A DNA stretch of 64,000 nucleotides from a virus (taxonomy: Duplodnaviria; Heunggongvirae; Uroviricota; Caudoviricetes): IMG/VR virus record IMGVR_UViG_2571042690_000019. The stretch is one strand, 5' to 3'. How positions within the stretch are numbered: position 1 is the stretch's first letter; every line of letters starts with the position of its first letter. The notes under the pieces are model-generated. The model searched no databases, was not told where the DNA came from, and was given only the letters and a program-made list of their open reading frames with translations. Below, one piece after another: positions 13,070 to 56,143 of this stretch. A program made the position numbers and the translations under genes.

Positions 13070-13693
13070 ATGAAGGATGGTGTAGTGAAGTTAAGGGTTT
13101 TAGGGGCCGCGCTCGCGGCTATGTTGGGATGCGTATCTGCTAATACTGCCAATGCAACTGCGTTACCTGCACAATTCAGGGCAGGGCAGCAGGTTATGAA
13201 TAACGCTGTTGGGGATCATTCACAAGCGGCCATTATGGACTTTTGCAAGAGGGAGGGCATTCCATTACGGCCTGTTGGAACTCAGTTTATTGGTAAAACT
13301 GACTTTTGCGTTTTTGCATATACAGCATATCTGACGGACAAAGCTATAACAAAAACAGGTTATTCAACCAAAGATACTCTTTCCAGATTAAGTCAGGGAT
13401 GGCAGCAATTCGAAGTGTATCGCCAGCAAGGATTAGGTGAGTTATTGCAACCACTTTTTATGCTTGCGTTGGTGCCAGAGGGGCAGCAATTTTTGGTTAA
13501 AAAGGGAATGCTTCGCCAAAGTGATATTGCCGGGTTCGATAGCATGATGGCTTATGAGCGCAAACTAACCGAGCAGCGAAATAAAAAACCATCTGCTTCA
13601 TGTGTGCAAAGTAAAACAGCAGAATACAGTGCAGTAGCCGGGCCTTTAGCCAAACAAATGGCAGAGCAATGGTGTAAAAAATACGGGCAATAA
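13070..13693 (+). CDS. hypothetical secreted protein or lipoprotein
   Basis: 207 aa, N-terminal signal-like hydrophobic segment LGAALAAMLGCVSA. Confidence 0.55.
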   Translation: MKDGVVKLRVLGAALAAMLGCVSANTANATALPAQFRAGQQVMNNAVGDHSQAAIMDFCKREGIPLRPVGTQFIGKTDFCVFAYTAYLTDKAITKTGYSTKDTLSRLSQGWQQFEVYRQQGLGELLQPLFMLALVPEGQQFLVKKGMLRQSDIAGFDSMMAYERKLTEQRNKKPSASCVQSKTAEYSAVAGPLAKQMAEQWCKKYGQ

Positions 13694-13713
13694 GTTACGC
13701 AGCGGAGGCAGAA

Positions 13714-14106
13714 TTGAACAGATTGGCTATTGCTTTACTGGCGTCTTTCCCTTTGATCGCGAGCGCCGGAAATTTACAAGTTAAGTGCGGTCGGTTTGAT
13801 ATAAAAATCTATCCAGATGCCATATTTCTGAATGGGAATAAGGTTGATAACGCACACCGAAAAACTGAATCTGACGTAATGAGCTATGTGTTCCAGGAGT
13901 ATGCGGAGATGGGGGGAACTTACACGCTGTACTCGCTGGATGTTCCTTCTCGCGGTGATATGACATTATCCCATCAATGGCAGAACGCCGATGGCGAAGC
14001 TCTGCGCGAGGTTAAAACAGAAAAATGTGGCACTTTCCATTCTTTTAAAGGGAAAGCGCCAAATGTTAAATCTGTGCTTGAAAAACAGCGCGCAGGTGAG
14101 CTTTAA
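13714..14106 (+). CDS. hypothetical secreted protein
   Basis: 130 aa, signal peptide MNRLAIALLASFPLIASA. Confidence 0.55.
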   Translation: MNRLAIALLASFPLIASAGNLQVKCGRFDIKIYPDAIFLNGNKVDNAHRKTESDVMSYVFQEYAEMGGTYTLYSLDVPSRGDMTLSHQWQNADGEALREVKTEKCGTFHSFKGKAPNVKSVLEKQRAGEL

Positions 14107-14414
14107 ACACCTTTAACCACGGAGATGCCGTTCCCTGCACGATAGCTGCGGGGAACGGAATTCTCCATCAGGTCACGAATTACTCCCGCCTCATGTAGTT
14201 CCTCTGTTTCCCAGTATCTGTTTGTCACCAGATCCAGGCTGGCTATGACCTTGTGCCGGTCATTCGGCATAGCCAATTTTTCTGCTATAACCATCAGTGA
14301 AAACTCTTCATCCAGTAGGATTTGATACCAGACTTTTGCCAGTTCCAACTCTCTAATGAGGGTGAAGCGCCGCTCAAGTGTGGCGGCAGAATAAGTGAAA
14401 TCTATTTTTTTCAT
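14103..14414 (-). CDS. hypothetical protein
   Basis: 103-aa ORF. Confidence 0.4.
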   Translation of the reverse strand: MKKIDFTYSAATLERRFTLIRELELAKVWYQILLDEEFSLMVIAEKLAMPNDRHKVIASLDLVTNRYWETEELHEAGVIRDLMENSVPRSYRAGNGISVVKGV

Positions 14415-14473: not shown

Positions 14474-15652
14474 TTAACTAACAATCCAGTCCATAGCAAT
14501 AACATCCTCTGGAGCTAAATCAATAGCATGGATTTTCCCGTCACGGATGGTGCGCCAGTGCTTTCGTGATCCACCTTCGGGCCACACCCATATACCTTCA
14601 GGCCAGGAAGAACGACGACACACTGTTGCGTATCCAGTCCTGATCTTCTCTCTGACGGTATGTAGTGACAGATTATCCTTTGGGCTTTCAGGCACAGGAT
14701 GGTGGATTGCCTGAAACATCCCCATCTTTGGATGATACCAGCGTTTATTGCGTGGTTCTGCCTCCGACATCACCTGCTTAAAGGCTTTCCGGAAGGGGGC
14801 ACGTGATCCACCTTCGGGCCACACCCATATACCTTCAGGCCAGGAAGAACGACGACACACTGTTGCGTATCCAGTCCTGATCTTCTCTCTGACGGTATGT
14901 AGTGACAGATTATCCTTTGGGCTTTCAGGCACAGGATGGTGGATTGCCTGAAACATCCCCATCTTTGGATGATACCAGCGTTTATTGCGTGGTTCTGCCT
15001 CCGACATCACCTGCTTAAAGGCTTTCCGGAAGGGGGCCAGGGCCACAATGGAACGTCGCGCAAGCAAACCGTCGGGAGTTAAAAACTCATGCGTATCTGT
15101 GGGGATCCGGTAAGCGTTGACCAGGTTGCGGCATTTGGCTTCAGTCAGGCCGCATTTCGCCGCTAACTGGCGATAGCCAATGTAGCCTTCCGGAATATTG
15201 CCTTTCTTTATTTGCTCGACGGTTTCAGCGACTTTGGTCACTTGTGCCGATACTTCGGCTACCTGGGCATTAACGGCGTTGATCCGGCGTTCATGCTCAA
15301 GATGCATTTGCGCCATTTCAGCCAGAATTTCGGCTTTTGATTTTAACTGTACCCGGGCATTCTCCAGTTCGCGCCAGCGGTCCACCAGCCGGGCGGTGAA
15401 TTCGGGAGAGAGCTGCGCGACGACGACAATACTATCGCGCTTGCCTTGCTCGCCTTCGAAGAAATAGGCTTTTGTGTATTTATTAGGGCTAAGTGATTGA
15501 TTATTCTCAACTGTAGCCAATGGCGTATGTTGGATAACTCCTTTAGCAACAAGTCTTTCGATGCTGCGTTTAACATCAGAGTGACGACTTCCCACCAGTT
15601 CCGCGATCTCAATGCTGGTCATTGTCGCTTTTTGAGAGATGGACAGATTCAT
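14474..15652 (-). CDS. phage antirepressor-like protein (Rha/Ant family) fused to a C-terminal domain; contains a 79-codon in-frame tandem duplication
   Basis: N-terminal SIEIAELVGSRHSDVKRSIERL and central region homologous to ORF 54851..55558; C-terminus homologous to separate ORF 54654..54854. Confidence 0.7.
   Translation of the reverse strand: MNLSISQKATMTSIEIAELVGSRHSDVKRSIERLVAKGVIQHTPLATVENNQSLSPNKYTKAYFFEGEQGKRDSIVVVAQLSPEFTARLVDRWRELENARVQLKSKAEILAEMAQMHLEHERRINAVNAQVAEVSAQVTKVAETVEQIKKGNIPEGYIGYRQLAAKCGLTEAKCRNLVNAYRIPTDTHEFLTPDGLLARRSIVALAPFRKAFKQVMSEAEPRNKRWYHPKMGMFQAIHHPVPESPKDNLSLHTVREKIRTGYATVCRRSSWPEGIWVWPEGGSRAPFRKAFKQVMSEAEPRNKRWYHPKMGMFQAIHHPVPESPKDNLSLHTVREKIRTGYATVCRRSSWPEGIWVWPEGGSRKHWRTIRDGKIHAIDLAPEDVIAMDWIVS
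14565..15038. repeat. exact tandem duplication, 2 x 237 bp, inside the antirepressor gene
   Basis: two consecutive identical 237-nt units; peptide APFRKAFKQV...WPEGGSR repeated twice in the ORF. Confidence 0.9.
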
Positions 15653-15867
15653 CAGTGCACCTCCACGCAGTTCATTGGCAGATTCCAGTAATTGAGGATC
15701 TCCATCGCATCAAGAGTGAAGCGAGCAGCAAAAATGCAGGGTTCTTCGGGAAGGTATGAGCGCGCCTCTGCTTCGGTAGCAGCCATTACGCAGATATAAA
15801 GGTGTTTTTGGCAGGAATAGAAACGCCAGATAAATTCAGAATGAGTTGGGGTAGGGATAGTAGCCAT
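15652..15867 (-). CDS. small protein upstream of antirepressor (position of P1 icd)
   Basis: 71 aa, strong AAGGAGG RBS, stop overlaps antirepressor start; paralog of ORF 55558..55782. Confidence 0.55.
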   Translation of the reverse strand: MATIPTPTHSEFIWRFYSCQKHLYICVMAATEAEARSYLPEEPCIFAARFTLDAMEILNYWNLPMNCVEVH

Positions 15868-16183
15868 ATTGGCAGCCTCCTTTGACTAAGTTAAGGAGCT
15901 ACCGCGTGAGGTTCCAATCTCAATGGCGGTAGCACTGACTGGGTTGGAACTACCGGCGTCAAAGGGAACCGGCCTGCCTTTCGGCAGCCCAGCCAGCACT
16001 ACCATTGATCTCTGAGCTAAACGCTAAGTATGGCTGTGCGATGGCATGACACAAAAAAAGACGCGTTCGGCGTCTGTGTCGCCTTTGACATTATCCGGGG
16101 TTCCAATCCCGGCACCCGTTTTTCTAAGGTGCCGTAGAAATATACCCCACGATAATGCCATGGCGCAACAGTCAGTATTTTAT

Positions 16184-34939: not shown

Positions 34940-35977
34940 ATGAGTAAGAAGTCGATCGAGAAAGAGTACAAACGGTTCCTGCAAACCGCTGAACGGTGGA
35001 AAGAGCTGGTGGTCGCAAACTCTGTTTTCCATGATACCAGTTATGCTGGCGAGGAATTCCGCCATGTTGCATTAACGCATGACCAAAACATATTAGAAGA
35101 AGCTGAAAAATGTCTTGCTGAATGGAAAGCCTTCGTTGACATGTGCCGCGATGCCGACGGCAAAGCGTCGAACATTGTTGAGTCTGTATATTCTCCGATC
35201 CCATTCATCATTGAGGACACCAATCAAAGCACGCATGTCGTTGTGCAAAGCGCTACAACAACACGTACATTTACACGTGAACAATTGCTAAAAAAATACG
35301 ACAAAATCATAAAGAAAAGCCTTAAAAATAGGGTTTTTTCTCAAATCGTAGGTGATCTTGAAGAAGAACAGCGCTTCTTTGAAGCTGAGCCTGAAGGCGA
35401 GATCTACCGGGCGCGTAAAGAGGCATATACAGATGTTGTGCTGACAACAAACATCGAAGGCAGCAATGCCCTTTCTCGCTTTAGAGTTGGCGCACATGGT
35501 GCATTGGTTTTCGCAAGACTACCGAAGACAACGATCCCCGTTGTCAATAATGTTGGTGAACGCCGGAGCATTACAATTTATTCTGGCGTCGAATCGGTAC
35601 CTTGCAGCCTTCTCGGCGATTTTAACTTATATCGTGTTCGTGACCTGGAAAAACACCAGCCAAGCTATGTTGCGAAGTCGTACATCTTAAGGAACATCGA
35701 TATTCGCAATGAAAGCCTTAAGCAGAAATCCGCTAAGATGCTGGAGGATGCCGATCCGGCTATTCGCCATATCATTGAGCGTAAGATACGTACATCACGT
35801 GAAGCAATGGCAAGGCTGGATAAAATGGATCTGGAATTGTTAGACGTAATGATGGCCTCTGGAGACGACCTGACCGGCATTAAACTGAATGAAGCTCGTA
35901 AAAAATACGGCAAAGCAATCGAAGAACGTTACGGATACACATTCCCCCAAACGCAGTACGCCGCGAAGCTCTGGTAA
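34940..35977 (+). CDS. hypothetical protein at the position of the P1 immunity repressor c1 (between pacB and the lox site)
   Basis: 345-aa ORF with RBS; functional call is by synteny only, no sequence similarity to C1 could be confirmed. Confidence 0.55.
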   Translation: MSKKSIEKEYKRFLQTAERWKELVVANSVFHDTSYAGEEFRHVALTHDQNILEEAEKCLAEWKAFVDMCRDADGKASNIVESVYSPIPFIIEDTNQSTHVVVQSATTTRTFTREQLLKKYDKIIKKSLKNRVFSQIVGDLEEEQRFFEAEPEGEIYRARKEAYTDVVLTTNIEGSNALSRFRVGAHGALVFARLPKTTIPVVNNVGERRSITIYSGVESVPCSLLGDFNLYRVRDLEKHQPSYVAKSYILRNIDIRNESLKQKSAKMLEDADPAIRHIIERKIRTSREAMARLDKMDLELLDVMMASGDDLTGIKLNEARKKYGKAIEERYGYTFPQTQYAAKLW

Positions 35978-40796: not shown

Positions 40797-40872
40797 TGGT
40801 GGCCCCTACCGGACTTGAACCGGTGACCGTGCGATTATGAGTCGCCAGCTCTAACCACTGAGCTAAGGGGCC
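40797..40872 (-). tRNA. tRNA-Ile (anticodon CAU, ileX-like) or tRNA-Met
   Basis: GGCCCCTTAGCTCAGTGGTTAGAGC...CTCATAA...GGTTCAAGTCC...GGGGCCACCA; cloverleaf folds; near-identical to E. coli ileX as recalled. Confidence 0.75.
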
Positions 40873-42561: not shown

Positions 42562-42637
42562 TGGTGCCGATTAACGGACTCGAACCGCTGACATCCTGCT
42601 TACAAGGCAGGCGCTCTACCAACTGAGCTAAACCGGC
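42562..42637 (-). tRNA. tRNA-Thr (anticodon UGU)
   Basis: GCCGGTTTAGCTCAGTTGGTAGAGC...CTTGTAA...GGTTCGAGTCC...CGGCACCA cloverleaf. Confidence 0.8.
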
Positions 42638-42639
42638 AT

Positions 42640-42715
42640 TGGCGATGGTGGATGGATTTGAACCATCGACCCGTTGATTAACAGTCAACCGCTCTAACCG
42701 CTGAGCTACACCATC
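42640..42715 (-). tRNA. tRNA-Asn (anticodon GUU)
   Basis: GATGGTGTAGCTCAGCGGTTAGAGC...CTGTTAA...GGTTCAAATCC...CACCATCGCCA cloverleaf. Confidence 0.8.
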
Positions 42716-47147: not shown

Positions 47148-50100
47148 TTAGGCCGCATCGGCGATTATTTTACGCAGTTCATCTACCGAGTAACGCGTAG
47201 ATACCATCCATGCAGGACGGTCAAAGTTCACATCAGCAACCGGGTTTGCTTCAAAATTCCAGAAACGTCCGCCAATCTTCTTAATCGCGTCTTTGGCGTT
47301 CCGTATTGTCGAGGAACCTGGTTGGTCGGCAATGAGATAAACCGCGCCAACGTCCTCGCTGACGCTCCACCAGCGCCCGCGAACACGCGCCTTAGCGCGA
47401 ATCGGCTTATCATTAACCACAATGATATAGTCATCATTCGCCGCTTCATCAGCTCTGGCTTCAGCCACTGCCGCCTGCTCTTCTCTTTTGCTTTCAGCCT
47501 GCTCAAGCCTTTCCGCGATCTCTGATTCAGTGGCCCCGCCGTTTTTCAGCGATACATAGTCCTGCCACGTTGCCGATTTGAGCGTATCCGGCAACTCATT
47601 CACATAGTCGCCGTCTTTCAACTCACGGGCGCGGCGGGTAGCCATTTCTACCAGGCGATTAACAGAAACAGCATCAGCAAAATCGTCCTTACTAATGTGT
47701 TTTTCATCAAATGCATTGATGACAGCCCCCACCTTAATCCACTGTGCTGCCGGTGATTCCAGGGGGTTATCAGCCTGAACAATGGCGAGTTTCGCTCCAT
47801 CTACCCCATTATTCGCCAGCTGTTCCAATGCCGCCCATCCATCTGCATCACTGAGTGATTTATATTGCTCAAACAATGCATCGCGCCAGGCCACCAGCGC
47901 AGAACGTGTTTTTTCGATCTTCGCCTTAATTTTCGCGATCTTGACCTGATTAAACATCCGTTCAATATCATCGATATTGCTAAAGGCTTTCATCCTGCCC
48001 TGGAATAAACGGTATGCCAGCACGGTCCTCCAGAATGATTCCAGACCTTCTCCGGACGGTTTGCGGAACAAGCTAAGAATATCTTCAGAAGTGACTTTAT
48101 TAAGCGAACGACCTGACAGACCACGCCCAGCCATCCAGTTTTCGAACTCATGGGCAACATCATCCATCGTTGCCTGTGCGCCCCATGCCTGCATTCCCTG
48201 GGTGTAATCATACCCATACAATGCCTGGAGGAATCCCTCGCCGTCCACGATATTCAGCGGGTTATCACTGGCTTGTATTTTTGCCACTTCACGCTTCAGC
48301 GCCTCGTCGTTGCCATCAGGATATATCCATCGCTCAGGTGCTATATCCGATGCTCGCCCGATTTTTTGGCCTATCACGCCATCATAGGCCGATGACAGCG
48401 CGATCTGACCATCATCTGTGCGATATGCCCAGTATTTAATAGCTGACCCACCGCCCCATGCATTACCAGGTTTACCAGCAATAACATTCATTACCCCATT
48501 GCGAATAGCATCATAGAACTGATCGCGAGTAAGTATTGTTGATAGCTGGTGGCACTGAACACCACGCGCAGCCGTTGCGCGCGATTCAGCTACCCCCTCT
48601 TCAAAAGTTACCGCTTCAATCACAGAGTCAAACGGCAATGTAACGATTGACCCCGGTGCTCGAGCGTAACGACTTGCTCTATCCAGCCAGGCGATACGGC
48701 AGAGGTATTGTGCTTTTTCACCGTCAATTTTTTCCACCCGGACAATCGCTGTTGTTTCGCGATCATCAATGACTGCACGGTAATAACTACCTTTATGCAA
48801 CAGGATATTCTTGTCAGTGCGCATATATTCCTGTGGGTTCTGAATAACATCGATACTGATATCCAGCACACCAGACTTAATAGCGCGCTCCACATCACCA
48901 CGAGAGCGTTTCATTATGGTATCCGCGTCTTTTGCCCTGGTGATCGCAAACCGCAGCACCCGCGCACGTTTTCTGTAGCTACTCAACTGCTCAAGCGCGT
49001 ATTTTTGCCCATTCCTGTTCGTACCCGCTTTTATCAGGTCGTCAAGATTGCGCTGGTAATACTCTATCTGTTCCATCGCGCTTTTCAGTTCTGTCTCCAT
49101 CATGCCGATATCTTTTCCGGCGGCGTTTGCCGCTTTCAGGTAGATATCGAGAGCATTGTTGGCCTCGCGCTGTGCTTTCAGTTTCAGACGTTCTTCACGC
49201 TCTTGCGCCTGGCGAGCCATGATTGCGCGGCGTTCTTCCGGGTTTGCCGCCAGCATAATGGCGCGTTCATCAGCATCATCCGCATCACCATTGGCGATCT
49301 CTGACATGTCGGATGTCATCACCATCTTGATCCAGTCTTTCTTACGTTTCAGCGTATCCAGACGGAAGTCGTCGAATGTGCCTTTGCCACAATAGTAGTG
49401 AACATTGACCTTTTCTTGCGGTGAACCTACGCGCGCACCGCGCCCATTTCGTTGGTCGATACTGGCTGGTGTCCAGGGTAGTGTCAGGTGGTGGATATCG
49501 GTTGTCCCGATGTGCAGGTTAATACCTACTTCAGCCTTCTTGTTACAGATTATGATGCGCGTGCGACCTTCGTTATAGTCGGCGGCAATACCTTCCATGC
49601 CCTCAAGGCCAGCATCATTTTTAGCGGAGAGATAATCCTCATATTGGGCAAGTTTGCTGTAGTAGGTTTCCCATGTCCCTTCTTTGTATTCACCGTTTTT
49701 GTTTGGAGTAGGTTCGGTCGGCTTATTCACCTTCTTCAGCTTGATGCCACCAGCCTGGCTAACTGTCGTCGCATTGATAATGCCAATCTCCTGCTCCGGC
49801 ATTTGCAGTGCACTGGCGATAATACGGCGCAGCTTCTGGTGCTGGGCTTTTTCATCAATAAAGACGATCTGCTTACCGTTCTTCAGACCTTCACGAAGAT
49901 TTTCGATCAGCGCGGCATACTTCGGCGGGATGGGGTGCGACACCTGCTGCATATCAATGCCGGCAGCCGCAATGGCCTTCAGTATTTCAGCTTCCAGTTC
50001 AATGCTGGCACGTATTTCAACATGCGTCGGATGTTCACTAAAAGCGGTCTTCACTACCTTGCTGGTACGCGTACTGACCAGCCCGCCAGCGCCGTCTTCC

Positions 50101-53100
50101 TCGGCCTCATCAACATCATCTGCCACTTTACCGCCAGCTACTTTTGGCAAGGCATCAGCAATAGCTTTTACCTGGTCTGCAAGCTCAACGGGGAACTGGA
50201 ATGTAATCGCACTGGCATACAGATCCGGGTCTATAGCAACCTTATCCATGTCACGGATGATGGAGAAGATGAAATCATCCGGTTTGTCGTTAGTGATATG
50301 CCCGTTTTCATCGACTGTCAGCTCATCATTGCGACTTAACTCCTGAGCACGCTTACGAAGCTCTTCATAAGCAGTCTCCTGCTCCCCTGTCATCGGGATC
50401 TGCAAGGTGTTCTCGATGATGTCGGGAATTTTAACCGTCGCTCCGACATCTGCAGCAGTCTTCAGAGTGGTCCAACGATGGAAAATACCACGCAGGCCGT
50501 CAAGGTTCTGGAAGCCCACCAGCCCCTGCTTCTCTTCCACTTCCCCGGAAATTTTCTGGACCTGAACTGTGGCTGTTTTGCCAAACACACGAACGAAATC
50601 ATCAGGCGTAATGATGCCCATACGCATCCACTCTTCCTGCGGAATGACAGTAGACAGCATGTTGAAGGCATCAATCGGACTGTTCACCAGCGGTGTTGCC
50701 GTCAGCATGACTACACCACGCCCGTTGTTGCGTTTCATCATGTACGCAGCTTTTACAGCCATGTCGCGGGCCATCTTGGATACTGCCGGGTTAGGCAAAT
50801 ATGCCAGTTGTCCCGCTTCACGCCCGGCATTAAAGGAGTTGCGGTAATTATGCCCCTCGTCGGCAATCACGCTATCGAAGTTCATATCCTCAAAGTACGG
50901 GATATTCTGCTTCTTCGTTGTACCGGTATTCGCGGCCTGATCCTTAATCTTGTTCTTCTTCTGCGCATCACGGTGTTTACCGGACGCCAGGTCAAGACGC
51001 CCCATTTCCACAGCATTAAAGACAGCTTGCTGTGAGTTCTCCTCGATGGTTTTTTCTCGTAGCGGGATAGACGCGAATTGTTCTTTTGTCATGATGACCG
51101 TTCGCCAATTTGACGACGGGATCATGTTCATACGCTGAACGATAACGGCGCTGGCGGACTCTTTCACAACATTTCTGGTAAGAGGCTGCCCGTTACTGTC
51201 GAGGCGTGGTTCGCCATTTTCATCAAGCACCGGCGCGGTCAGAATATTTCCGCTGTCATCACGAACTTCATCCAAACCGATAAACATCATATTGGCGAAG
51301 GCATCAGCACTGTAGAAACTCTGTGCCTCGTGATACCAGTTCTGATAAACCGCCTTCGGAACAACAATACACGTGCGTTTAGTGCGACCTGTTTCGAAGT
51401 TATACGCCTCAAGCGCAAGCGCGGTCGTGGTTTTACCCAGCCCGGTACCAAATCCCATGATGCCGCGCCCATCTTCTGACAAGCGCCGAACTTCTTCATT
51501 CTGATAAGTAAGAGGAATGCGCTTTCCACTAAGCCCTTCCAGGCCAAGCGGTGCGTCAGAATGCGTGAACGGAATGAAACCATTGAATGCGTCGTTATAC
51601 TCGCGGGCTATCTGATCAGCCTGCGGGTGAGTGCGTAACCAGTCGTTAAAACTAACTTCCAGTTGAGCAATTTTATCCAGGTACTCGTTAGCGTTCTGCC
51701 CACGCGGTTTAACACCGTTCAGGTAGTTTTCTAACTGGTTCAGGAAGCCGTCTTTATTGTTGGCCTTCTTGAACTCATTCCCGTTTTTGCCGTTTACGGT
51801 TCGTAGCTGATAGCCGGTAAATACACCGTCCTTACCTTCGTAATCGTCCGGAGATACCAGAATGCCATCGACGACCTTCAGATCAGGTTCAGTGTACTTA
51901 AACTCGTCATAGCCCTGCTCTGCCAGGAACTCTTTTATCAAGCGGCGATCCAGCCAGCGGGCATTCAGATTAACGGTGACTTTATTTAGTGGCGTGAAAA
52001 TACGTTTCTCTTCGATTTTCGCCAACTGACGCTCAAAGTTCGCTTTCTGCTCACCTGTTGACGCATCACGCCAGCCCATCAGCAATGCTGTTTTGGTTGC
52101 AATATCGCCGCTGGTGGCGCGGTCCATCGGCAGCAGGCAGCCATACCCATCAATAGCGATATCATCAAATTTCGCCAGGTATTCAAGGGCCGCGTCGTCG
52201 TCCTCTGGCAGTTCACCAGCAAACGCCTCACGAAAGTCTCCCAGCGTTATAGGATTAAGGGCTACATCACTGAAAAGATGTGCTATCACTTGTTCAGGAC
52301 GTGTAAAGTCAATACCGGCAGCACCATCCGTTACATCAAGTCGCCCTGCCAGAAGGTCAGAAGTGGAACCATCCTGTTTCACATTGCCAGTGAACGTCAT
52401 CCAGTTTTTAGCGCCAGCTTCAGCAAGCCCATTCAGCTTAATGGCGTGCGGTGGTCCATACTTCGCAACTTCTGCTGCCGCCAGGCGGGATGCATCTGCC
52501 AGTTTGTCATCAACGTTCACACCCAGGTTACGCAAATCAAGTGCCTTGTTGATCAACTGACCTATCAGCGCACCGCGCATAACGCGCTCCCTGTCTTTTT
52601 CTCGCTGCTTGCCAGCAAAGCGAATCATTGCTGCCACTTCATCACTGACAACCGATGGATAGTCGGACGCGATCGCCGATATCTGGTCCCATGACAAAGC
52701 CAGAATCCCGTTTGTTGACTGGAACGCGATCTGCAGATCGCCAAACGTCGAAACACCATATCGACTTACATCAAGCGCGGAGGATTTGGTTGTCGTGTCC
52801 TTAACCCATTTCAGACCATCAAACTCATGCCAGATACCGCCTACAAGGCGTTTATCGCCCACTTTCGCGCCCTGCCATGCCTGAGTAGTTACGCCGAGCA
52901 AATCCCAATTGATGCGACTATCAAAGCGACGAGATAGCGCGGTTTTCATCGACTCATTGGATACACGACCGTCTTTTTTCACCACCAAGGTATTGCGGAA
53001 GCTGGTACGTTCCATGTCGCCGTAAACAAATCGCTTCCCTTCGGTTGTAAACCATTTTCCTTTGAGGAAGGTATCCCAAAGGACGTTTGCCGATTTGAGT

Positions 53101-53984
53101 GTTGAATCATCCGTGTCGGGGATCATCTCCAGGAAGGTTTCCGGGTGTTTACGCAATACCCATACGTCCACCACGGTATCTGTACCGGATTCGCTGAACG
53201 TACCAGAAGGCATACGATGTGCGCCCAAAAATTCCGCTTTACGGCTGACTTTATCGCGCAATTTTTTATATTTCGCACCATCGGTCATGCCATTCGGCAC
53301 CACCAATACGATAAGCCCACCAGGTTTAACCTTGTCGATCGTGCGCAGCACAAAGTAATTGCCAACGTTCTTCTCGTTTGCATATGCCGGATCAAGCCCG
53401 GCGACACCGGAACGCCCTTCACCAAACGGTACGTTACCAACAGCGTGATCATACATTGCGTCTTTCGCCGCCAGCGCCTCAAACGCCCCGATATTCACAT
53501 CGTCTTCCGGGTGCAAAAGCTGGTTTATTCGACCGGAAATCTGAGACAGTTCGGCGCTGGTCATTATCATGCCCTGCCGTTTTGTCTCCTGGAAAATACC
53601 TGTGCCCGCTGATGGTTCCAGTACGTGCCCGCCATCAATACCGTAGTCAGCAAACAGATCCCATATACCTTCAGCCATAAACTGTGGCGTGTAGTATTCG
53701 TATTGGCTGCCCTCACCATCTGTCAGGCCGCCTTCACCGGTATACCCGGCAAGAATCTGACGTTGTTCGTCAGTTAATTTCGCCCCATCGAAGCCGGGCG
53801 GAAGGGAATTAAGAAGATTTACTGCGGCATTATTTGCTGCCCGGCGTGTTTTCTGAATACTGACGCCATCGGCTTTCCTGACGCCAAAGGTCGCAACAGC
53901 ACGTAATTTATGCAACCGACTAACAATTTCAATCAGTTCGCCTAAGCTGGAGGCTTCACTGATTGAATGAAGTAGTTTGTCCAA
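47148..53984 (-). CDS. darB: giant multidomain protein: N-terminal N6-adenine methyltransferase-like region plus SF2 DExH helicase (DarB-like antirestriction protein)
   Basis: 2278 aa; helicase motif I GFGTGLGKT and motif II ADEGHNYRN; N-terminal MTase-like NVPFGEG; size matches P1 DarB (~2255 aa). Confidence 0.7.
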   Translation of the reverse strand: MDKLLHSISEASSLGELIEIVSRLHKLRAVATFGVRKADGVSIQKTRRAANNAAVNLLNSLPPGFDGAKLTDEQRQILAGYTGEGGLTDGEGSQYEYYTPQFMAEGIWDLFADYGIDGGHVLEPSAGTGIFQETKRQGMIMTSAELSQISGRINQLLHPEDDVNIGAFEALAAKDAMYDHAVGNVPFGEGRSGVAGLDPAYANEKNVGNYFVLRTIDKVKPGGLIVLVVPNGMTDGAKYKKLRDKVSRKAEFLGAHRMPSGTFSESGTDTVVDVWVLRKHPETFLEMIPDTDDSTLKSANVLWDTFLKGKWFTTEGKRFVYGDMERTSFRNTLVVKKDGRVSNESMKTALSRRFDSRINWDLLGVTTQAWQGAKVGDKRLVGGIWHEFDGLKWVKDTTTKSSALDVSRYGVSTFGDLQIAFQSTNGILALSWDQISAIASDYPSVVSDEVAAMIRFAGKQREKDRERVMRGALIGQLINKALDLRNLGVNVDDKLADASRLAAAEVAKYGPPHAIKLNGLAEAGAKNWMTFTGNVKQDGSTSDLLAGRLDVTDGAAGIDFTRPEQVIAHLFSDVALNPITLGDFREAFAGELPEDDDAALEYLAKFDDIAIDGYGCLLPMDRATSGDIATKTALLMGWRDASTGEQKANFERQLAKIEEKRIFTPLNKVTVNLNARWLDRRLIKEFLAEQGYDEFKYTEPDLKVVDGILVSPDDYEGKDGVFTGYQLRTVNGKNGNEFKKANNKDGFLNQLENYLNGVKPRGQNANEYLDKIAQLEVSFNDWLRTHPQADQIAREYNDAFNGFIPFTHSDAPLGLEGLSGKRIPLTYQNEEVRRLSEDGRGIMGFGTGLGKTTTALALEAYNFETGRTKRTCIVVPKAVYQNWYHEAQSFYSADAFANMMFIGLDEVRDDSGNILTAPVLDENGEPRLDSNGQPLTRNVVKESASAVIVQRMNMIPSSNWRTVIMTKEQFASIPLREKTIEENSQQAVFNAVEMGRLDLASGKHRDAQKKNKIKDQAANTGTTKKQNIPYFEDMNFDSVIADEGHNYRNSFNAGREAGQLAYLPNPAVSKMARDMAVKAAYMMKRNNGRGVVMLTATPLVNSPIDAFNMLSTVIPQEEWMRMGIITPDDFVRVFGKTATVQVQKISGEVEEKQGLVGFQNLDGLRGIFHRWTTLKTAADVGATVKIPDIIENTLQIPMTGEQETAYEELRKRAQELSRNDELTVDENGHITNDKPDDFIFSIIRDMDKVAIDPDLYASAITFQFPVELADQVKAIADALPKVAGGKVADDVDEAEEDGAGGLVSTRTSKVVKTAFSEHPTHVEIRASIELEAEILKAIAAAGIDMQQVSHPIPPKYAALIENLREGLKNGKQIVFIDEKAQHQKLRRIIASALQMPEQEIGIINATTVSQAGGIKLKKVNKPTEPTPNKNGEYKEGTWETYYSKLAQYEDYLSAKNDAGLEGMEGIAADYNEGRTRIIICNKKAEVGINLHIGTTDIHHLTLPWTPASIDQRNGRGARVGSPQEKVNVHYYCGKGTFDDFRLDTLKRKKDWIKMVMTSDMSEIANGDADDADERAIMLAANPEERRAIMARQAQEREERLKLKAQREANNALDIYLKAANAAGKDIGMMETELKSAMEQIEYYQRNLDDLIKAGTNRNGQKYALEQLSSYRKRARVLRFAITRAKDADTIMKRSRGDVERAIKSGVLDISIDVIQNPQEYMRTDKNILLHKGSYYRAVIDDRETTAIVRVEKIDGEKAQYLCRIAWLDRASRYARAPGSIVTLPFDSVIEAVTFEEGVAESRATAARGVQCHQLSTILTRDQFYDAIRNGVMNVIAGKPGNAWGGGSAIKYWAYRTDDGQIALSSAYDGVIGQKIGRASDIAPERWIYPDGNDEALKREVAKIQASDNPLNIVDGEGFLQALYGYDYTQGMQAWGAQATMDDVAHEFENWMAGRGLSGRSLNKVTSEDILSLFRKPSGEGLESFWRTVLAYRLFQGRMKAFSNIDDIERMFNQVKIAKIKAKIEKTRSALVAWRDALFEQYKSLSDADGWAALEQLANNGVDGAKLAIVQADNPLESPAAQWIKVGAVINAFDEKHISKDDFADAVSVNRLVEMATRRARELKDGDYVNELPDTLKSATWQDYVSLKNGGATESEIAERLEQAESKREEQAAVAEARADEAANDDYIIVVNDKPIRAKARVRGRWWSVSEDVGAVYLIADQPGSSTIRNAKDAIKKIGGRFWNFEANPVADVNFDRPAWMVSTRYSVDELRKIIADAA

Positions 53985-54135: not shown

Positions 54136-54621
54136 ATGGCAAACATTGAACCTCGCTGGCTAATTGAAGCCCGTAAGCACATTGGCCTGACTGAAATAAA
54201 AGGCGCTAAACACAACCCTGAAATCGTTCAGTTCTGGCGCGACATCAAGCGCGGCGGAATTAAAGACGATGAAACGCCGTGGTGCGCAGCATTTGTCGGT
54301 GCAATGCTGGAACGTGTAGGCATCCGCTCAACAAGATTTGAGTCGGCAAAATCCTATCTGGATTGGGGCGAGAAATTAGATACACCGGCATACGGATGTA
54401 TCGTTGTATTTACCCGCGTAGGCGGTGGGCACGTAGGCTTCGTTGTCGGACGCCGCGCCAATGGCGATCTGCTTGTCTTGGGTGGGAACCAGGGGGATGC
54501 GGTAAATATTCGCGCATTCCCAACATCAAGAGTGTCTGGCTATCGCTGGCCTGCTGGCGAACCACGCAATACCGCTCTGTTACCAGTCGGAGACGCAGCA
54601 ACCTCAACTAATGAGGCATGA
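54136..54621 (+). CDS. hypothetical protein, possible CHAP/NlpC-P60-like hydrolase (TIGR02594-type)
   Basis: 161 aa with conserved Cys (ETPWCAAFVG) and His (GGGHVGFVVG) spaced as in CHAP-like domains. Confidence 0.45.
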   Translation: MANIEPRWLIEARKHIGLTEIKGAKHNPEIVQFWRDIKRGGIKDDETPWCAAFVGAMLERVGIRSTRFESAKSYLDWGEKLDTPAYGCIVVFTRVGGGHVGFVVGRRANGDLLVLGGNQGDAVNIRAFPTSRVSGYRWPAGEPRNTALLPVGDAATSTNEA

Positions 54622-54650
54622 AAAAAGCCCCGGCCTGGCCGGGGCATCAC
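54621..54650. terminator. terminator hairpin (GCCCCGG-CCTGG-CCGGGGC) with A-run upstream, T-run on minus strand
   Basis: ends the minus-strand antirepressor operon. Confidence 0.55.
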
Positions 54651-54653
54651 GCT

Positions 54654-54854
54654 TCAAGTCACGATCCAATCATTACCGACTATATCAGCCGTCGATAAAT
54701 CAACTTCCCGGATCTGGAGTCCATTAATACAAAACCATCCGGTAGTAGAGTAATTATCAGGCCAGGCCCATACACCAACACTCCATGCTTTACGGCGGCA
54801 CACTTCAGCCTGTCCTTCCCTGATTTTTTTTACCGCCTGCATGATGTCCATCAC
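54654..54854 (-). CDS. small protein homologous to the C-terminal domain of antirepressor 14474..15652
   Basis: CRRKAWSVGVWAWPDN...DWIVT aligns with CRRSSWPEGIWVWPEG...DWIVS. Confidence 0.5.
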   Translation of the reverse strand: MMDIMQAVKKIREGQAEVCRRKAWSVGVWAWPDNYSTTGWFCINGLQIREVDLSTADIVGNDWIVT

Positions 54855-55558
54855 TCACCTCCCCAACCGATCACCTGGAATTGCCCCATTTTGGGGTGAT
54901 ACCAGCGTTTTCCTCGGTGTTCAGCCTCCGACATCATCCGGTTAAAAGAATTCATGAAGGGAGATAAGGCCACGATGGAACGACGCGACAATACCCCCTC
55001 TGGAGTTAAAAACTCATGTGTATCGGTGGGAATCCGGAAAGCGTTAACCAGGTTGCGGCATTTGGCTTCGGTCAGGCCACATTTCGCCGCCAGCTGGCGG
55101 TAGCCAATGTAACCTTCCGGCATATTGCCCTTCTTGATTTGCTCGACGGTTTCAGCGACCTGGCTAACCTTTGACTCAACAGCATGAAGCCGCTTTTGCT
55201 GCTGAACTGCATTTGCAGCCATTGCGGCGATCATCTCTATTTCGGTCAACGGCTGGCGTACTTGTTCTTCCAGTTCGCGCCAGCGGTCCACCAGCCGGGC
55301 AGTAAACTCAGGACAAAGCTGTGCGACTACAATGATACTGTCTCGTTTGCCTTGCTCGTCGCTAAATCGGAACACCTGAATTAATCGAGAACGCCCCATT
55401 ACATCTATTTTTGGTTCATCCTCAATTTGAGGACGAACAATAACGCCGGATTCGGCTAATGTTTCAATGGTACGCTTCACATTGTCATGACGTTTTCCCA
55501 CCAGCTCCGCGATCTCAATGCTGGTCATTGATGGCTTTTCAAGAATGCAGATATCCAT
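54851..55558 (-). CDS. phage antirepressor-like protein (Rha/Ant family)
   Basis: MTSIEIAELVGKRHDNVKRTIETL and central region homologous to 14474..15652; start set at internal Met overlapping upstream stop. Confidence 0.65.
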   Translation of the reverse strand: MDICILEKPSMTSIEIAELVGKRHDNVKRTIETLAESGVIVRPQIEDEPKIDVMGRSRLIQVFRFSDEQGKRDSIIVVAQLCPEFTARLVDRWRELEEQVRQPLTEIEMIAAMAANAVQQQKRLHAVESKVSQVAETVEQIKKGNMPEGYIGYRQLAAKCGLTEAKCRNLVNAFRIPTDTHEFLTPEGVLSRRSIVALSPFMNSFNRMMSEAEHRGKRWYHPKMGQFQVIGWGGE

Positions 55559-55782
55559 CAGTGTGCCTCCGCAATGCCGGGATTGGTAATATTGCGATAC
55601 CAAGGATTAGTGTTTGGTTGTGGGGAAGTAGAGAAACGACCAGTAAGAACACCATGCTGATCAGGGATCAGAGAACGGGCTTCTTTTTCGGTTGCGGCAA
55701 TTGCGAAGTGATCGCAGTGTTTTTGCAGGGAGTGGAAACGCCAGATGAATTCTGGACGTGAGCAAGGATTGGCATTAACCAT
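55558..55782 (-). CDS. small protein upstream of antirepressor (paralog of 15652..15867)
   Basis: shared EFIWRF..S.QKH...AATE.EARS segments. Confidence 0.5.
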   Translation of the reverse strand: MVNANPCSRPEFIWRFHSLQKHCDHFAIAATEKEARSLIPDQHGVLTGRFSTSPQPNTNPWYRNITNPGIAEAH

Positions 55783-56128
55783 AGTTACGGCCTCACTAAC
55801 AGGTTTAACAACCTGCTACCCGCTGTCAAACAGGTGGCAGGACGTGACAGGGTTGACAGACTGGCGTTAGTGAAACCAGCAGGCCGAAGCCTCCCCATCA
55901 CGCCCCACCATAATTCGGGCGTAACGTGGTTTACGGACACAAAAATACCGCAATATCGGAAATCTGCGGTTGTCCGCACTAACATTCAGGCTGTCAAACC
56001 TGGTCGCAGAATTTGCTACGACGGCATGAATATAAGCCTGAAAACATGGAAGATCAACTAAAAATTTCAGCAATGGATGACTTCAGTCGATGATGCAGAT
56101 CATACATTCCGATTTAGAAACAGCAAAT

Positions 56129-56143
56129 TAATTTTCTAACATA
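56129..56143 (+). promoter_or_regulatory. operator-like motif TAATTTTCTAACATA
   Basis: dispersed conserved motif. Confidence 0.4.

What the first reader, a model, noticed from the sequence alone, without database searches (positions are those of the whole stretch)
54654..55782. Two diverged small-protein/antirepressor modules in one element
Module 1 (15652..15867 plus 14474..15652) and module 2 (55558..55782 plus 54851..55558 plus 54654..54854) encode paralogous small proteins followed by Rha/Ant-like proteins with overlapping stop/start codons. The two copies are clearly diverged, not recent duplicates. Two immunity-I-like antirepressor systems in one phage could mean dual immunity control or acquisition of a second module by recombination.
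Basis: partly seen in the sequence, partly recalled or inferred. Interest (0 to 1): 0.5.

Follow-up and report, generated by a model that had tools for sequence, protein, structure and literature searches.

The report
Two RNA-locked icd–ant operons
This D6-like phage-plasmid carries two complete, mutually non-cross-reacting copies of the phage P1 "immunity I" switch (a small antisense RNA locking a leader-peptide/regulator operon); this layout is already known for the D6 group, so it is a well-explained but ordinary feature.

Summary
The window is a D6-like P1-family phage-plasmid (91–96% identical to phage D6). It holds two minus-strand modules, each with a leader, a c4 antisense RNA, an Icd-like ORF and a Rha/Roi-type protein.

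- **RNA components.** Both modules have a c4 RNA above Rfam threshold. Each carries loop sequences a′/b′ that perfectly match a1/b1 upstream and a2/b2 over the icd ribosome-binding site.
- **Module 2.** Its c4 is 77/77 identical to P1 c4. Its leader is the c4-a1b1 type.
- **Module 1.** It belongs to the IsrK/c4 subtype known from Gifsy-1.
- **Orthogonality.** The two recognition codes differ more from each other than P1 differs from P7, so they are predicted not to cross-react.
- **Comparison with D6.** The C1 repressor is 99.7% identical to D6's, yet both c4 codes differ from D6 with compensatory target changes.
- **Comparative support.** In about 190 related loci the loops and targets covary almost perfectly. 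Thirty contigs carry 2–3 modules.

The effector proteins are not homologues of P1 Ant1/2, so antirepressor activity is only inferred. D6's GenBank record and a 2019 paper already note the second region. Module 1's ant gene carries a 237-bp in-frame tandem duplication not seen in any comparison record checked.

The parts
16139..16168 (-). Module 1 promoter-like site (TTGCGC-18 nt-TATATT). It places a start about 7 nt downstream, at the first base of the isrK-family match.
   Evidence: Read from the sequence. It falls below the scan tool's threshold, so it was not reported. Inferred.
16054..16132 (-). Module 1 leader RNA of the IsrK family. It carries a1 (TTGGAAC, 16100-16106) and b1 (GTCAAAGG, 16082-16089) in hairpin loops, and ends in an intrinsic terminator hairpin plus U-run (16053-16075).
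   Evidence: Rfam RF01394 at 61.3 bits against a gathering score of 50. Terminator scan. Fold. Site coordinates.
15928..16003 (-). Module 1 c4-type antisense RNA (76 nt, Y-shaped). Loop b' is CCTTTGAC (15958-15965) and the single-stranded a' is GTTCCAA (15944-15950).
   Evidence: Rfam RF01695 at 77.1 bits for 15922-16009. Minimum free energy -45 kcal/mol, z = -5.8. Coordinates.
15879..15917 (-). Module 1 targets: a2 (TTGGAAC, 15911-15917) and b2 (GTCAAAGG, 15879-15886). b2 overlaps the AAGGAGG Shine-Dalgarno sequence of icd.
   Evidence: Perfect complements of a' and b'. 100% of cells paired across 29 distinct relatives.
15652..15867 (-). Module 1 Icd-like leader ORF (71 aa).
   Evidence: 63% identical to P1 Icd. 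NF033153. dN/dS 0.13 against D6.
14474..15652 (-). Module 1 Rha/Roi-type effector ('Ant', 392 aa). Its start overlaps the icd stop (TGATG). The C-terminal PHROG-7385 domain is fused. It contains a perfect in-frame 237-bp tandem duplication (14565-15038).
   Evidence: The D6 orthologue is 313 aa. The 25 best plasmid hits, the 15 best E. coli hits and 21 IMG/VR relatives all lack the duplication.
56132..56142 (-). AT-rich repeated motif ATGTTAGAAAA, between the repL stop and the module 2 promoters, at the position equivalent to P1 operator Op51. Candidate binding site of the D6-type C1 repressor.
   Evidence: 14 sites in the window against 1.4 expected. Conserved in D6, including two copies just upstream of c1. 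Function is inferred and unresolved.
56029..56057 (-). Module 2 sigma-70 promoter-like site (TTGATC-17-TATATT), aligned with P1 promoter P1c4 (P51b).
55976..56035 (-). Module 2 leader (c4-a1b1 family) with a1 (TTGACAG, 55991-55997) and b1 (GTTAGTGC, 55976-55983).
   Evidence: Rfam RF03163 at 54.4 bits for 55983-56035. Coordinates. Fold.
55833..55909 (-). Module 2 c4 antisense RNA, 77/77 identical to P1 c4. b' is TCACTAAC (55866-55873) and a' is CTGTCAA (55853-55859).
   Evidence: Rfam RF01695 at 68.8 bits. Identity to the annotated P1 c4. Fold -42 kcal/mol, z = -4.6.
55793..55829 (-). Module 2 targets: a2 (TTGACAG, 55823-55829) and b2 (GTTAGTGA, 55793-55800). b2 overlaps the icd Shine-Dalgarno sequence.
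   Evidence: The same sites are annotated in P1. 97.8% of cells paired across 39 relatives, with 129 double changes.
55558..55782 (-). Module 2 Icd-like leader ORF (74 aa).
   Evidence: 61% identical to P1 Icd. NF033153. dN/dS 0.09.
54851..55558 (-). Module 2 Rha/Roi-type effector ('Ant', 235 aa): two winged-helix-like domains joined by a long helix.
   Evidence: Pfam PF09669. 61% identical to the module 1 protein. AlphaFold model with pLDDT 75. No significant PDB match.
54654..54854 (-). Module 2 third gene (65-66 aa, PHROG 7385), translationally overlapped (TGATG). It is the homologue of the C-terminus of the module 1 protein.
   Evidence: Identical to D6 orf17.
54627..54645 (-). GC-rich hairpin plus T-run that ends module 2. 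It lies between module 2 and the convergent CHAP hydrolase gene.
34940..35974 (+). C1-type prophage repressor, the presumed target of the effectors.
   Evidence: 99.7% identical to D6 orf1, annotated 'similar to P1 C1'.

Best explanation
The window comes from a D6-like plasmid prophage. It carries two self-contained immI-type operons: leader, c4 antisense RNA, icd-like ORF and a Rha/Roi-type effector. Module 2 has an extra small ORF.

Proposed mechanism, by analogy with P1:
1. Each operon is transcribed from its own promoter just upstream of the leader.
2. The c4 RNA is cut out of that transcript.
3. Its two exposed sequences, a' and b', pair with a2 and b2 on the same kind of transcript.
4. 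b2 covers the icd ribosome-binding site, so icd is not translated.
5. The effector start overlaps the icd stop (TGATG), so the effector is not made either.
6. The upstream a1/b1 copies in the leader can compete for c4. In the IsrK relative, a short terminated leader acts in trans as an activator.

The two modules use different a'/b' codes, so each c4 should lock only its own operon. The element therefore has two independent RNA locks on two paralogous effectors. Module 2 uses exactly the P1 code. Both codes differ from those of D6 although the C1 repressor is the same. The element should therefore be immI-heteroimmune to D6, as P7 is to P1.

Shown here: the RNAs, their folds, the complementarities, their covariation, the ORF overlaps and purifying selection.

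Inferred: RNA processing, translational coupling, termination, and that the effectors inactivate C1.
For: - Two C4 family hits, plus isrK and c4-a1b1 leader hits, all above Rfam gathering scores.
- Module 2 c4 is identical to the annotated P1 c4, and its a1/b1/a2/b2 sites match those annotated in P1.
- Module 1 has the same layout with perfect 7- and 8-nt complements at four sites.
- Both c4 RNAs fold into the same Y shape (z = -5.8 and -4.6).
- Covariation, P1-type: 39 distinct relatives, loop-target pairs 97.8% paired against 29-51% in slid controls, and 129 double changes against 43 in shuffles (0/500).
- Covariation, module 1 type: 29 distinct relatives, 100% and 99.5% paired, with variation confined to the six a/b sites.
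- Cross-complementarity between the two window modules is only a 4/7 and b 4/8, below P1 against P7 (5/7 and 6/8).
- Both icd ORFs are Icd-like.
- TGATG overlaps at every junction.
- dN/dS of 0.09-0.37 for all four genes against D6.
- Both modules are conserved in D6 and in 99 complete E. coli genomes, always on plasmids, with a median of two matching places each.
- The P1 mechanism is taken from the P1 record annotation and from PMC8198154 and PMC8546580. The IsrK trans-activation is taken from PMC4825925.
Against: - The effectors are not P1 Ant homologues. They have no ANT/KilAC domain, BLASTP gives E = 0.3, and hhalign probability is 0.2%.
- Their N-terminal domain is 60-72% identical to the DNA-binding protein Roi, and the model shows winged-helix-like domains.
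- Both effectors differ from D6's by 13-14%, concentrated in residues ~25-85, while C1 is 99.7% identical. That is not what tight co-evolution with C1 would predict.
- The P1 C1 operator consensus is absent. The candidate D6-type motif also lies upstream of late genes.
- No expression or processing data are available.
Confidence: 0.75

Rival explanations
1. The RNA locks are real, but the gated proteins are not antirepressors of C1. They are Rha/Roi-type DNA-binding regulators that act on DNA to promote lytic development. Their variable N-terminal segment would set a DNA or partner specificity unrelated to C1.
For: - Pfam Phage_pRha plus HTH hits.
- 60-72% identity of residues 11-97 to Roi of H-19B, HK-type and Stx phages, which are annotated as DNA-binding.
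- The AlphaFold model shows two beta-alpha-alpha-beta-beta-alpha winged-helix-like domains. The weak Foldseek neighbours are MarR/PadR/TFIIE.
- No similarity to P1 Ant.
- The effectors diverge from D6's while C1 does not.
Against: - They occupy exactly the slot of ant in P1. In relatives the same c4-icd cassettes are joined interchangeably to P1-type Ant or to this Rha-type protein (115 and 41 loci), which suggests functional equivalence.
- They match PHROG 63 and PHROG 1726, 'anti-repressor'.
- In Gifsy-1, expression of the anti-repressor-like AnrP downstream of IsrK raises transcription of the phage antQ operon (PMC4825925).
Confidence: 0.3
2. The second module serves competition between elements rather than the element's own switch. 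Module 2's P1-identical c4 would silence the icd-ant of an incoming or co-resident P1. Alternatively, the two effectors would act in trans on the repressors of other prophages.
For: - Module 2 c4 and its targets are identical to P1's.
- P1-like and D6-like elements share a common pool of c4 alleles.
- Gifsy anti-repressors bind and inactivate the lysogenic repressor (PMC4825925). A paper titled 'Bacteriophage Crosstalk: Coordination of Prophage Induction by Trans-Acting Antirepressors' (PMC3121763) appeared in the search, but was not read.
Against: - The allele at module 2 varies freely among D6-like elements. D6 itself has a different b', so P1 specificity is not a fixed property.
- Each c4 is perfectly matched to its own operon, which is enough to explain its presence.
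- There are no data on co-residence with P1.
Confidence: 0.2
3. One module is redundant or decaying. In particular, module 1 could be inactive because its effector carries a 79-aa internal duplication, or the duplication could be an assembly artefact.
For: - The duplication is perfect (236/236 identical, period 237).
- It is absent from D6, from the 25 best plasmid hits, from the 15 best E. coli hits and from IMG/VR relatives.
- RefSeq marks the orthologue in the closest plasmid as an incomplete pseudogene.
Against: - The duplication is in frame and leaves a complete copy of every domain.
- c4, all four target sites, icd and the overlaps are intact.
- dN/dS is 0.25 for ant and 0.13 for icd against D6.
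- Module 1-type loci are conserved and covary in 71 IMG/VR loci.
Confidence: 0.1

Closest known systems
Phage P1/P7 immI operon (c4 antisense RNA, icd, ant1/ant2)
   Same: - Same order of parts: promoter, a1/b1 leader, processed-type c4 RNA with a' and b', a2/b2 over the icd ribosome-binding site, an Icd-like ORF, and an effector overlapping the icd stop.
- Module 2 c4 is 77/77 identical to P1 c4, and the promoter-to-icd 5' region is 93% identical.
- Specificity differences follow the P1 against P7 logic.
   Different: - The effector is Rha/Roi-type (PF09669), not Ant1/Ant2 with an ANT/KilAC domain. No nested Ant2 was examined.
- There is no kilA.
- repL lies upstream of module 2 instead of downstream.
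- The P1 C1 operator consensus is absent.
- There are two modules instead of one.
Phage D6 orf17-18-19 and orf82-83 (MF356679), and D6-like plasmid prophages such as pYU39_89
   Same: - Same two modules at the same genomic positions, 96% and 91.5% nucleotide identity.
- C1 is 99.7% identical.
- The second antisense-RNA/icd region was already noted (PMC6799933).
   Different: - Recognition codes differ in both modules. Module 1: a' GTTCCAA against GTCTCAA, and b' CCTTTGAC against CCTTTTGC. Module 2: b' TCACTAAC against TCGTAAGT. All targets are compensated.
- The N-terminal segment of both effectors is replaced.
- The 237-bp duplication is present only here.
- The c4 RNAs are not annotated in the D6 record.
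Gifsy-1 isrK-orf45-anrP locus of Salmonella
   Same: - The module 1 leader is an IsrK-family RNA with an intrinsic terminator.
- It is followed by a conserved structured RNA region, a small ORF translationally coupled to an anti-repressor-like gene, and a short ORF over the RNA (Phage_ASH hit).
- The experimentally shown read-through and trans-activation by the short leader (PMC4825925) give a tested model for the a1/b1 leader.
   Different: - Here a separate Icd-like ORF lies between the RNA and the effector.
- The element is a plasmid prophage, not an integrated lambdoid.
- No AntQ-type output is evident.
- Whether the short leader accumulates here is unknown.
N15 immA anti-immunity locus and the P4 CI RNA immunity system
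   Same: A small processed RNA controls an operon that includes icd and antirepressor genes in another plasmid prophage (PMC4488713, which cites Ravin et al. 1999). P4 CI RNA pairs with repeated target sequences upstream and downstream of itself (PMC4825925 discussion).
   Different: In those systems the RNA is described as causing premature transcription termination. The proteins (AntA/B/C) and the repressor (lambda-like CB) are different. No sequence comparison was made here.

Membership tests
P1/P7-type immI operon | A c4-family antisense RNA encoded upstream of icd on the same strand | tested here: met
   Rfam RF01695 at 77.1 and 68.8 bits against a gathering score of 45, for both modules. 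Module 2 is identical to P1 c4.
P1/P7-type immI operon | Loop sequences a'/b' complementary to a2/b2, with b2 over the icd ribosome-binding site, and to a1/b1 upstream | tested here: met
   Perfect 7- and 8-nt complements in both modules. b1 of module 2 matches 7/8, as in P1. Covariation across relatives.
P1/P7-type immI operon | An Icd-like ORF immediately after the targets, overlapping the start of the next gene | tested here: met
   61-63% identity to P1 Icd. NF033153. TGATG overlaps. Actual translational coupling was not testable.
P1/P7-type immI operon | Effector of the Ant1/Ant2 type (ANT/KilAC domain PF03374) | tested here: not met
   P1 Ant1 hits PF03374. The window proteins hit only PF09669 and HTH models. 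BLASTP E = 0.3. hhalign probability 0.2%. Both do match the broad PHROG 63.
P1/P7-type immI operon | C1 operator (Op51-like) at the c4 promoter | tested here: inconclusive
   The P1 consensus has 0 hits within 3 mismatches. A different repeated motif lies at the equivalent place and upstream of c1, ref and repL, but also upstream of late genes.
P1/P7-type immI operon | The effector inactivates the C1 repressor, and c4 is processed from the operon transcript | not testable with these tools
   Needs expression, binding and RNA-end mapping experiments.
IsrK-type leader/activator locus (Gifsy-1) | An IsrK-family RNA with a Rho-independent terminator upstream of a coupled small ORF and an anti-repressor-like gene | tested here: met
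   Module 1 only: RF01394 at 61.3 bits, terminator at 16053-16075, and downstream coupled ORFs.
IsrK-type leader/activator locus (Gifsy-1) | The short leader RNA activates translation of the read-through transcript in trans | not testable with these tools
   Known only from experiments in Salmonella (PMC4825925).
Rha/Roi family regulators (PF09669) | An N-terminal Phage_pRha domain above the Pfam threshold | tested here: met
   32.1 and 37.2 bits against a cut-off of 29.9. 60-72% identity to Roi N-termini.
D6-like plasmid prophages | Synteny and high identity with phage D6, including C1, DarB, RepL and Ref | tested here: met
   All 200 matching places in E. coli complete genomes are on plasmids of about 90 kb.

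The most novel reading that the evidence does not exclude
P1- and D6-family phage-plasmids may carry a combinatorial RNA 'immunity barcode'. Each element would hold one to three orthogonal c4-icd-effector locks, drawn by recombination from a shared pool of at least 2x2 module 1-type codes and at least 2x7 P1-type codes.

Superinfection immunity, or its converse, induction of the resident prophage by an incoming relative, would require a match at every lock. Extra modules would multiply the number of heteroimmune types without any change in the C1 repressor.

The terminated a1/b1 leaders would act as trans-acting decoys, letting an incoming genome of the same code unlock the resident's effector.
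Probability: 0.3. Interest if true: 0.6.

Novelty: new member of a known kind. Interest (0 to 1): 0.35.

Why it matters
The P1/P7 immI system is the classic case of immunity specificity set by a few bases of an antisense RNA. This window shows the same logic duplicated within one element. Two non-cross-reacting codes sit in an element whose main repressor is unchanged relative to D6.

Related loci add three points:
- The codes behave as freely reassorting alleles with strict compensatory change at three sites each.
- The codes are shared between P1-like and D6-like elements.
- The codes are attached to two unrelated effector types.

If tested, this would explain how closely related plasmid prophages, common carriers of resistance genes in E. 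coli and Salmonella, stay heteroimmune and coexist or exclude one another.

As a finding about this window it is mostly confirmation. The dual modules are annotated in D6 and have been noted in the literature.

Tried and rejected
- **P1 C1 operator.** I searched the P1 consensus ATTGCTCTAATAAATTT with up to 3 mismatches and found 0 hits, so P1-type operators are not present. A k-mer search instead found the motif RTGTTAGAAAA. I could not decide whether it is the D6-type C1 operator, because it also precedes late genes and is missing upstream of the lpa homologue.
- **Distant homology to P1 Ant.** BLASTP and hhalign of alignments built from IMG/VR relatives gave nothing. Those alignments were shallow (Neff 1.6), so distant homology is not excluded.
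- **Structure.** PDB sequence searches for the effector and the 66-aa ORF gave nothing. The AlphaFold model (pLDDT 75, pTM 0.39) gave no Foldseek PDB hit below E = 0.03. It supports only a generic winged-helix reading.
- **Homologue search.** The 120 hits shown were all 86-98% identical, so they did not deepen the alignment.
- **Literature access.** The D6 genome paper (PMC5800970) and the original c4/icd papers (PMC312442, PMC196329) are not held. What they say about the two regions could not be checked.
- **Recent gene conversion between modules.** Rejected. The best block is only 85-90% identical at the nucleotide level.
- **Avoidance of identical codes within one element.** No contig with several P1-type modules repeats an a'/b' pair. 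By my own rough estimate from the allele frequencies, chance alone would give this with a probability of about 0.1-0.25, so it is not significant.
Full report
**Observation**

- The small proteins (15652..15867, 71 aa; 55558..55782, 74 aa) are 45% identical to each other. They are 63% and 61% identical to P1 Icd, and both pass the NCBIfam Icd-like model.
- The large proteins (14474..15652, 392 aa; 54851..55558, 235 aa) are 61% identical (E=7e-103). Both pass Pfam Phage_pRha at the N-terminus.
- The third ORF of module 2 (54654..54854) is homologous to the C-terminal ~58 residues of the module 1 protein. One domain is therefore fused in module 1 and split off in module 2.
- Every junction reads TGATG, with stop and start sharing one base.
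- At the nucleotide level the modules are about 55-65% identical, with one block of 85-90%. They are old paralogues.
- The window holds exactly two icd-like and two Rha-type genes, and no P1-type Ant or KilA.

**What the element is**

- The two regions are 96% and 91.5% identical to Escherichia phage D6, a P1-related plasmid prophage.
- D6 has the same two gene sets, orf17-18-19 and orf82-83, annotated 'inhibition of cell division' and 'putative anti-repressor'.
- The module 1 effector gene matches 99 of 5426 complete E. coli genomes, always on plasmids, with a median of two matching places per genome.
- Extra icd-ant homologues have also been noted in P1-like plasmids (PMC6906374).
- The dual arrangement is therefore a family trait, not a peculiarity of this window.

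**The RNAs**

A scan of the whole window against Rfam gives two C4 antisense RNA hits above threshold, one upstream of each icd (15922-16009 at 77.1 bits; 55830-55915 at 68.8 bits). It also gives an isrK hit (16054-16132) upstream of the first and a c4-a1b1 hit (55983-56035) upstream of the second.

I aligned both regions with the annotated P1 and P7 immI regions and with D6 and searched for motifs. Both modules show the full P1 layout.
- Module 2: a1 TTGACAG and b1 GTTAGTGC lie in the leader. The 77-nt c4 has b' TCACTAAC in a hairpin loop and a' CTGTCAA in the adjacent single strand. Then come a2 TTGACAG and b2 GTTAGTGA, with b2 running into the GAGG Shine-Dalgarno sequence of icd. This c4 is 77/77 identical to P1 c4.
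- Module 1: the same plan holds with a' GTTCCAA and b' CCTTTGAC. It has perfect complements at a1, b1, a2 and b2, and b2 overlaps AAGGAGG.
- Both c4 RNAs fold into the same Y shape, far more stably than shuffled sequence (z = -5.8 and -4.6).
- Both leaders display a1 and b1 in or next to hairpin loops.
- Module 1's leader ends in a clear intrinsic terminator.

**Comparative test**

I scanned IMG/VR for the conserved c4 stem of each type.
- Module 1 type: 71 loci carry only two a' alleles and two b' alleles, in all four combinations. The a2, b1 and b2 sites match the loops in 73/73 cases, counting the window and D6. The a1 site matches in 71/73.
It shows two a' alleles (the P1 and P7 ones) and at least seven b' alleles in at least twelve combinations. 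All four targets are complementary in 115 of 117 complete loci.
- Formal counts for the P1 type: 97.8% of loop/a2-b2 cells are paired, against 29-51% when partners are slid. There are 129 double changes against 43 in shuffles, 0 of 500 reaching the observed value. Counts for a1/b1 are similar.
- Formal counts for the module 1 type: 100% and 99.5% paired. Essentially all variation in 260 nt is confined to the six a/b sites.

This is strong evidence that the pairings are functional in both modules.

**Orthogonality and heteroimmunity**

- Between the two window modules the cross-complementarity is 4/7 for a and 4/8 for b, with duplex energies near zero. The cognate pairs give -7 to -10 kcal/mol.
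- P1 and P7 are known to be heteroimmune through c4 (PMC12197685; PMC6906374). They are closer to each other than that, at 5/7 and 6/8.
- The two locks should therefore not cross-react.
- Relative to D6, module 1 differs at both a' and b', and module 2 differs at b'. All targets are compensated.
- The C1 repressor (34940-35974) is 99.7% identical to D6's. This repeats the P1/P7 situation of the same repressor with a different antisense code.

**Multiplicity and shuffling**

- Thirty IMG/VR contigs carry two or three c4 modules. Some P1-like contigs hold three P1-type modules, each with a different b'.
- No element repeats a full code, but with so few cases this is not statistically significant.
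- Downstream of icd, relatives carry either a P1-type Ant or the Rha-type protein. The counts are module 1 RNA with P1-Ant 36, module 1 RNA with Rha-type 22, P1-type RNA with P1-Ant 79, and P1-type RNA with Rha-type 19.
- In the window, P1-like identity (93%) runs from the module 2 promoter to about one third into icd and then stops.
- RNA cassette and effector are therefore separate recombination units.

**The effectors**

The effectors are the weak point of the 'antirepressor' reading.
- P1 Ant1 has an ANT/KilAC domain. The window proteins do not.
- BLASTP and a shallow profile-profile comparison find no similarity, although all of them match the broad PHROG 63 'anti-repressor Ant'.
- Their first ~100 residues are 60-72% identical to Roi of lambdoid and Stx phages, annotated as DNA-binding.
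- An AlphaFold model (pLDDT 75) shows two beta-alpha-alpha-beta-beta-alpha domains joined by a long helix. It has no significant PDB neighbour and only weak winged-helix resemblances.
- All four genes are under purifying selection against D6 (dN/dS 0.09-0.37).
- Both effectors have a replaced segment at residues ~25-85, while C1 is unchanged.

I therefore hold that the RNA gating is well supported. The gated protein may be an antirepressor (favoured by its interchangeability with P1 Ant and by the Gifsy-1 AnrP precedent) or a Roi-like DNA-binding lytic regulator.

**Mechanism proposed**

The background is the P1 annotation and PMC8198154 and PMC8546580. There, C1 represses the operon, c4 blocks icd/ant translation, and Ant inactivates C1.

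For this element:
1. Each module is transcribed from a promoter just upstream of its leader: 56057-56029 for module 2 and about 16168-16139 for module 1 (read from the sequence).
2. Read-through from repL (module 2) and from the ref side (module 1) may add transcripts.
3. c4 pairs with a2/b2 and prevents icd translation, and with it effector synthesis.
4. The a1/b1 leader competes for c4. In Gifsy-1 the short terminated IsrK leader activates translation of the read-through transcript in trans (PMC4825925). This gives an experimentally grounded role for the module 1 leader.

**Upstream control**

- The P1 C1 operator consensus is absent.
- A repeated motif, RTGTTAGAAAA, occurs 14 times against 1.4 expected.
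- It lies twice just upstream of c1, upstream of ref and repL, between repL and the module 2 promoters (the Op51-equivalent position), and about 530 nt upstream of the module 1 leader. These sites are conserved in D6.
- It also precedes some late genes, so calling it the D6-type C1 operator remains tentative.

**Verdict**

The finding is real and its core reading is right. There are two complete immI-like systems in one element, and they are predicted to be orthogonal. It is a new member of a known kind: the layout is that of D6 and has been remarked on in print.

New points from this analysis:
- Module 2's c4 is identical to P1's.
- Both codes differ from D6 despite a near-identical C1.
- There is population-level evidence for reassorting, strictly compensated code alleles attached to two unrelated effector types.
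- The module 1 effector has an in-frame 237-bp duplication not seen in any comparison record checked.

Noticed in passing
window 14565-15038 (-), inside the module 1 effector gene: A perfect in-frame 237-bp tandem duplication (79 aa). It repeats the end of the middle domain and the first half of the C-terminal domain. It is absent from D6 (313 aa), from the 25 best plasmid hits, from the 15 best E. coli hits (all 942 bp) and from IMG/VR relatives. It is either very recent or an assembly artefact.
   Followed up: partly
window 5153, 13040, 16668, 17326, 22579, 34829, 34911, 43782, 45187, 46230, 56132, 57331 (11-mers): An AT-rich motif, wwwtRTGTTAGAAAAyTAAwtt, occurs 14 times against 1.4 expected. 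It is conserved at the same places in D6. Two copies lie just before c1, and others lie before ref, repL and module 2, but also before late genes (pmgS, gene 23, mat). Several sites have an inverted CTAAC partner about 14 nt downstream. It is a candidate D6-type C1 operator or another regulator box. The question is unresolved.
   Followed up: partly
window 15886-16005 (-): A 39-aa ORF lying entirely over the module 1 c4 RNA passes Pfam Phage_ASH (PF10554, 32.2 bits). It corresponds to the 'ash family protein' CDS in RefSeq plasmids (NZ_CP058619). That protein family may therefore be, at least in part, a translation of c4-type RNA genes. It occupies the same position as the conserved-at-nucleotide-level 'orf45' of the Gifsy-1 IsrK paper; they were not compared by sequence.
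   Followed up: partly
window ~55300-55480 and ~15440-15620 (-): Between this element and D6, divergence in both effectors is concentrated in one segment of the N-terminal Rha domain (residues ~25-85). Nucleotide identity there falls to 35-65%, against 95-100% in the flanks. C1 is 99.7% identical. This looks like an exchanged specificity cassette.
   Followed up: partly
loci L087, L150, L178 (IMG/VR contig 651053023_000001, 103 kb); L125, L173, L090 (contig 2703718869_000013): Some P1-like contigs carry three P1-type c4 modules, each with a different b' loop.
   Followed up: partly
loci L046 and L052: These are the only two of 73 module 1-type loci where a1 in the leader does not match a', while a2 does. 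They look like recombinants with a crossover between the leader and c4.
   Followed up: no
alignment A2 columns ~48-90 (module 2 leader; window ~55940-55975): After b1 the P1-type leader has a hairpin plus U-run (CCGCA...TGCGG TATTTTTG). In the two most divergent relatives (L136, L177) it is replaced by other complementary stems (CCACC...GGTGG, CCGCT...AGCGG). This suggests a conserved terminator like that of IsrK.
   Followed up: no
proteins P0030, P0032, P0033, P0035, P0037 (306 aa): Some module 2-type effectors in other plasmids are 306 aa, which would fit the 235-aa protein fused to the 66-aa ORF product. If so, the fusion/split state would be polymorphic in both module lineages. I did not align their C-terminal parts to the 66-aa ORF.
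   Followed up: no
window 13070-14190 (+): The region left of module 1 does not match D6. It encodes a 207-aa protein with a signal-peptide-like N-terminus and a 130-aa lipoprotein-like protein, where D6 has a simB-like gene and orf80.
   Followed up: no
window 40800-40872, 42565-42637, 42643-42715 (-); 47148-53984 (-); 54136-54621 (+): Other features: three tRNA genes, a 2278-aa DarB-like ORF, and a CHAP-domain peptidoglycan hydrolase convergent with module 2. D6 carries matching features.
   Followed up: no
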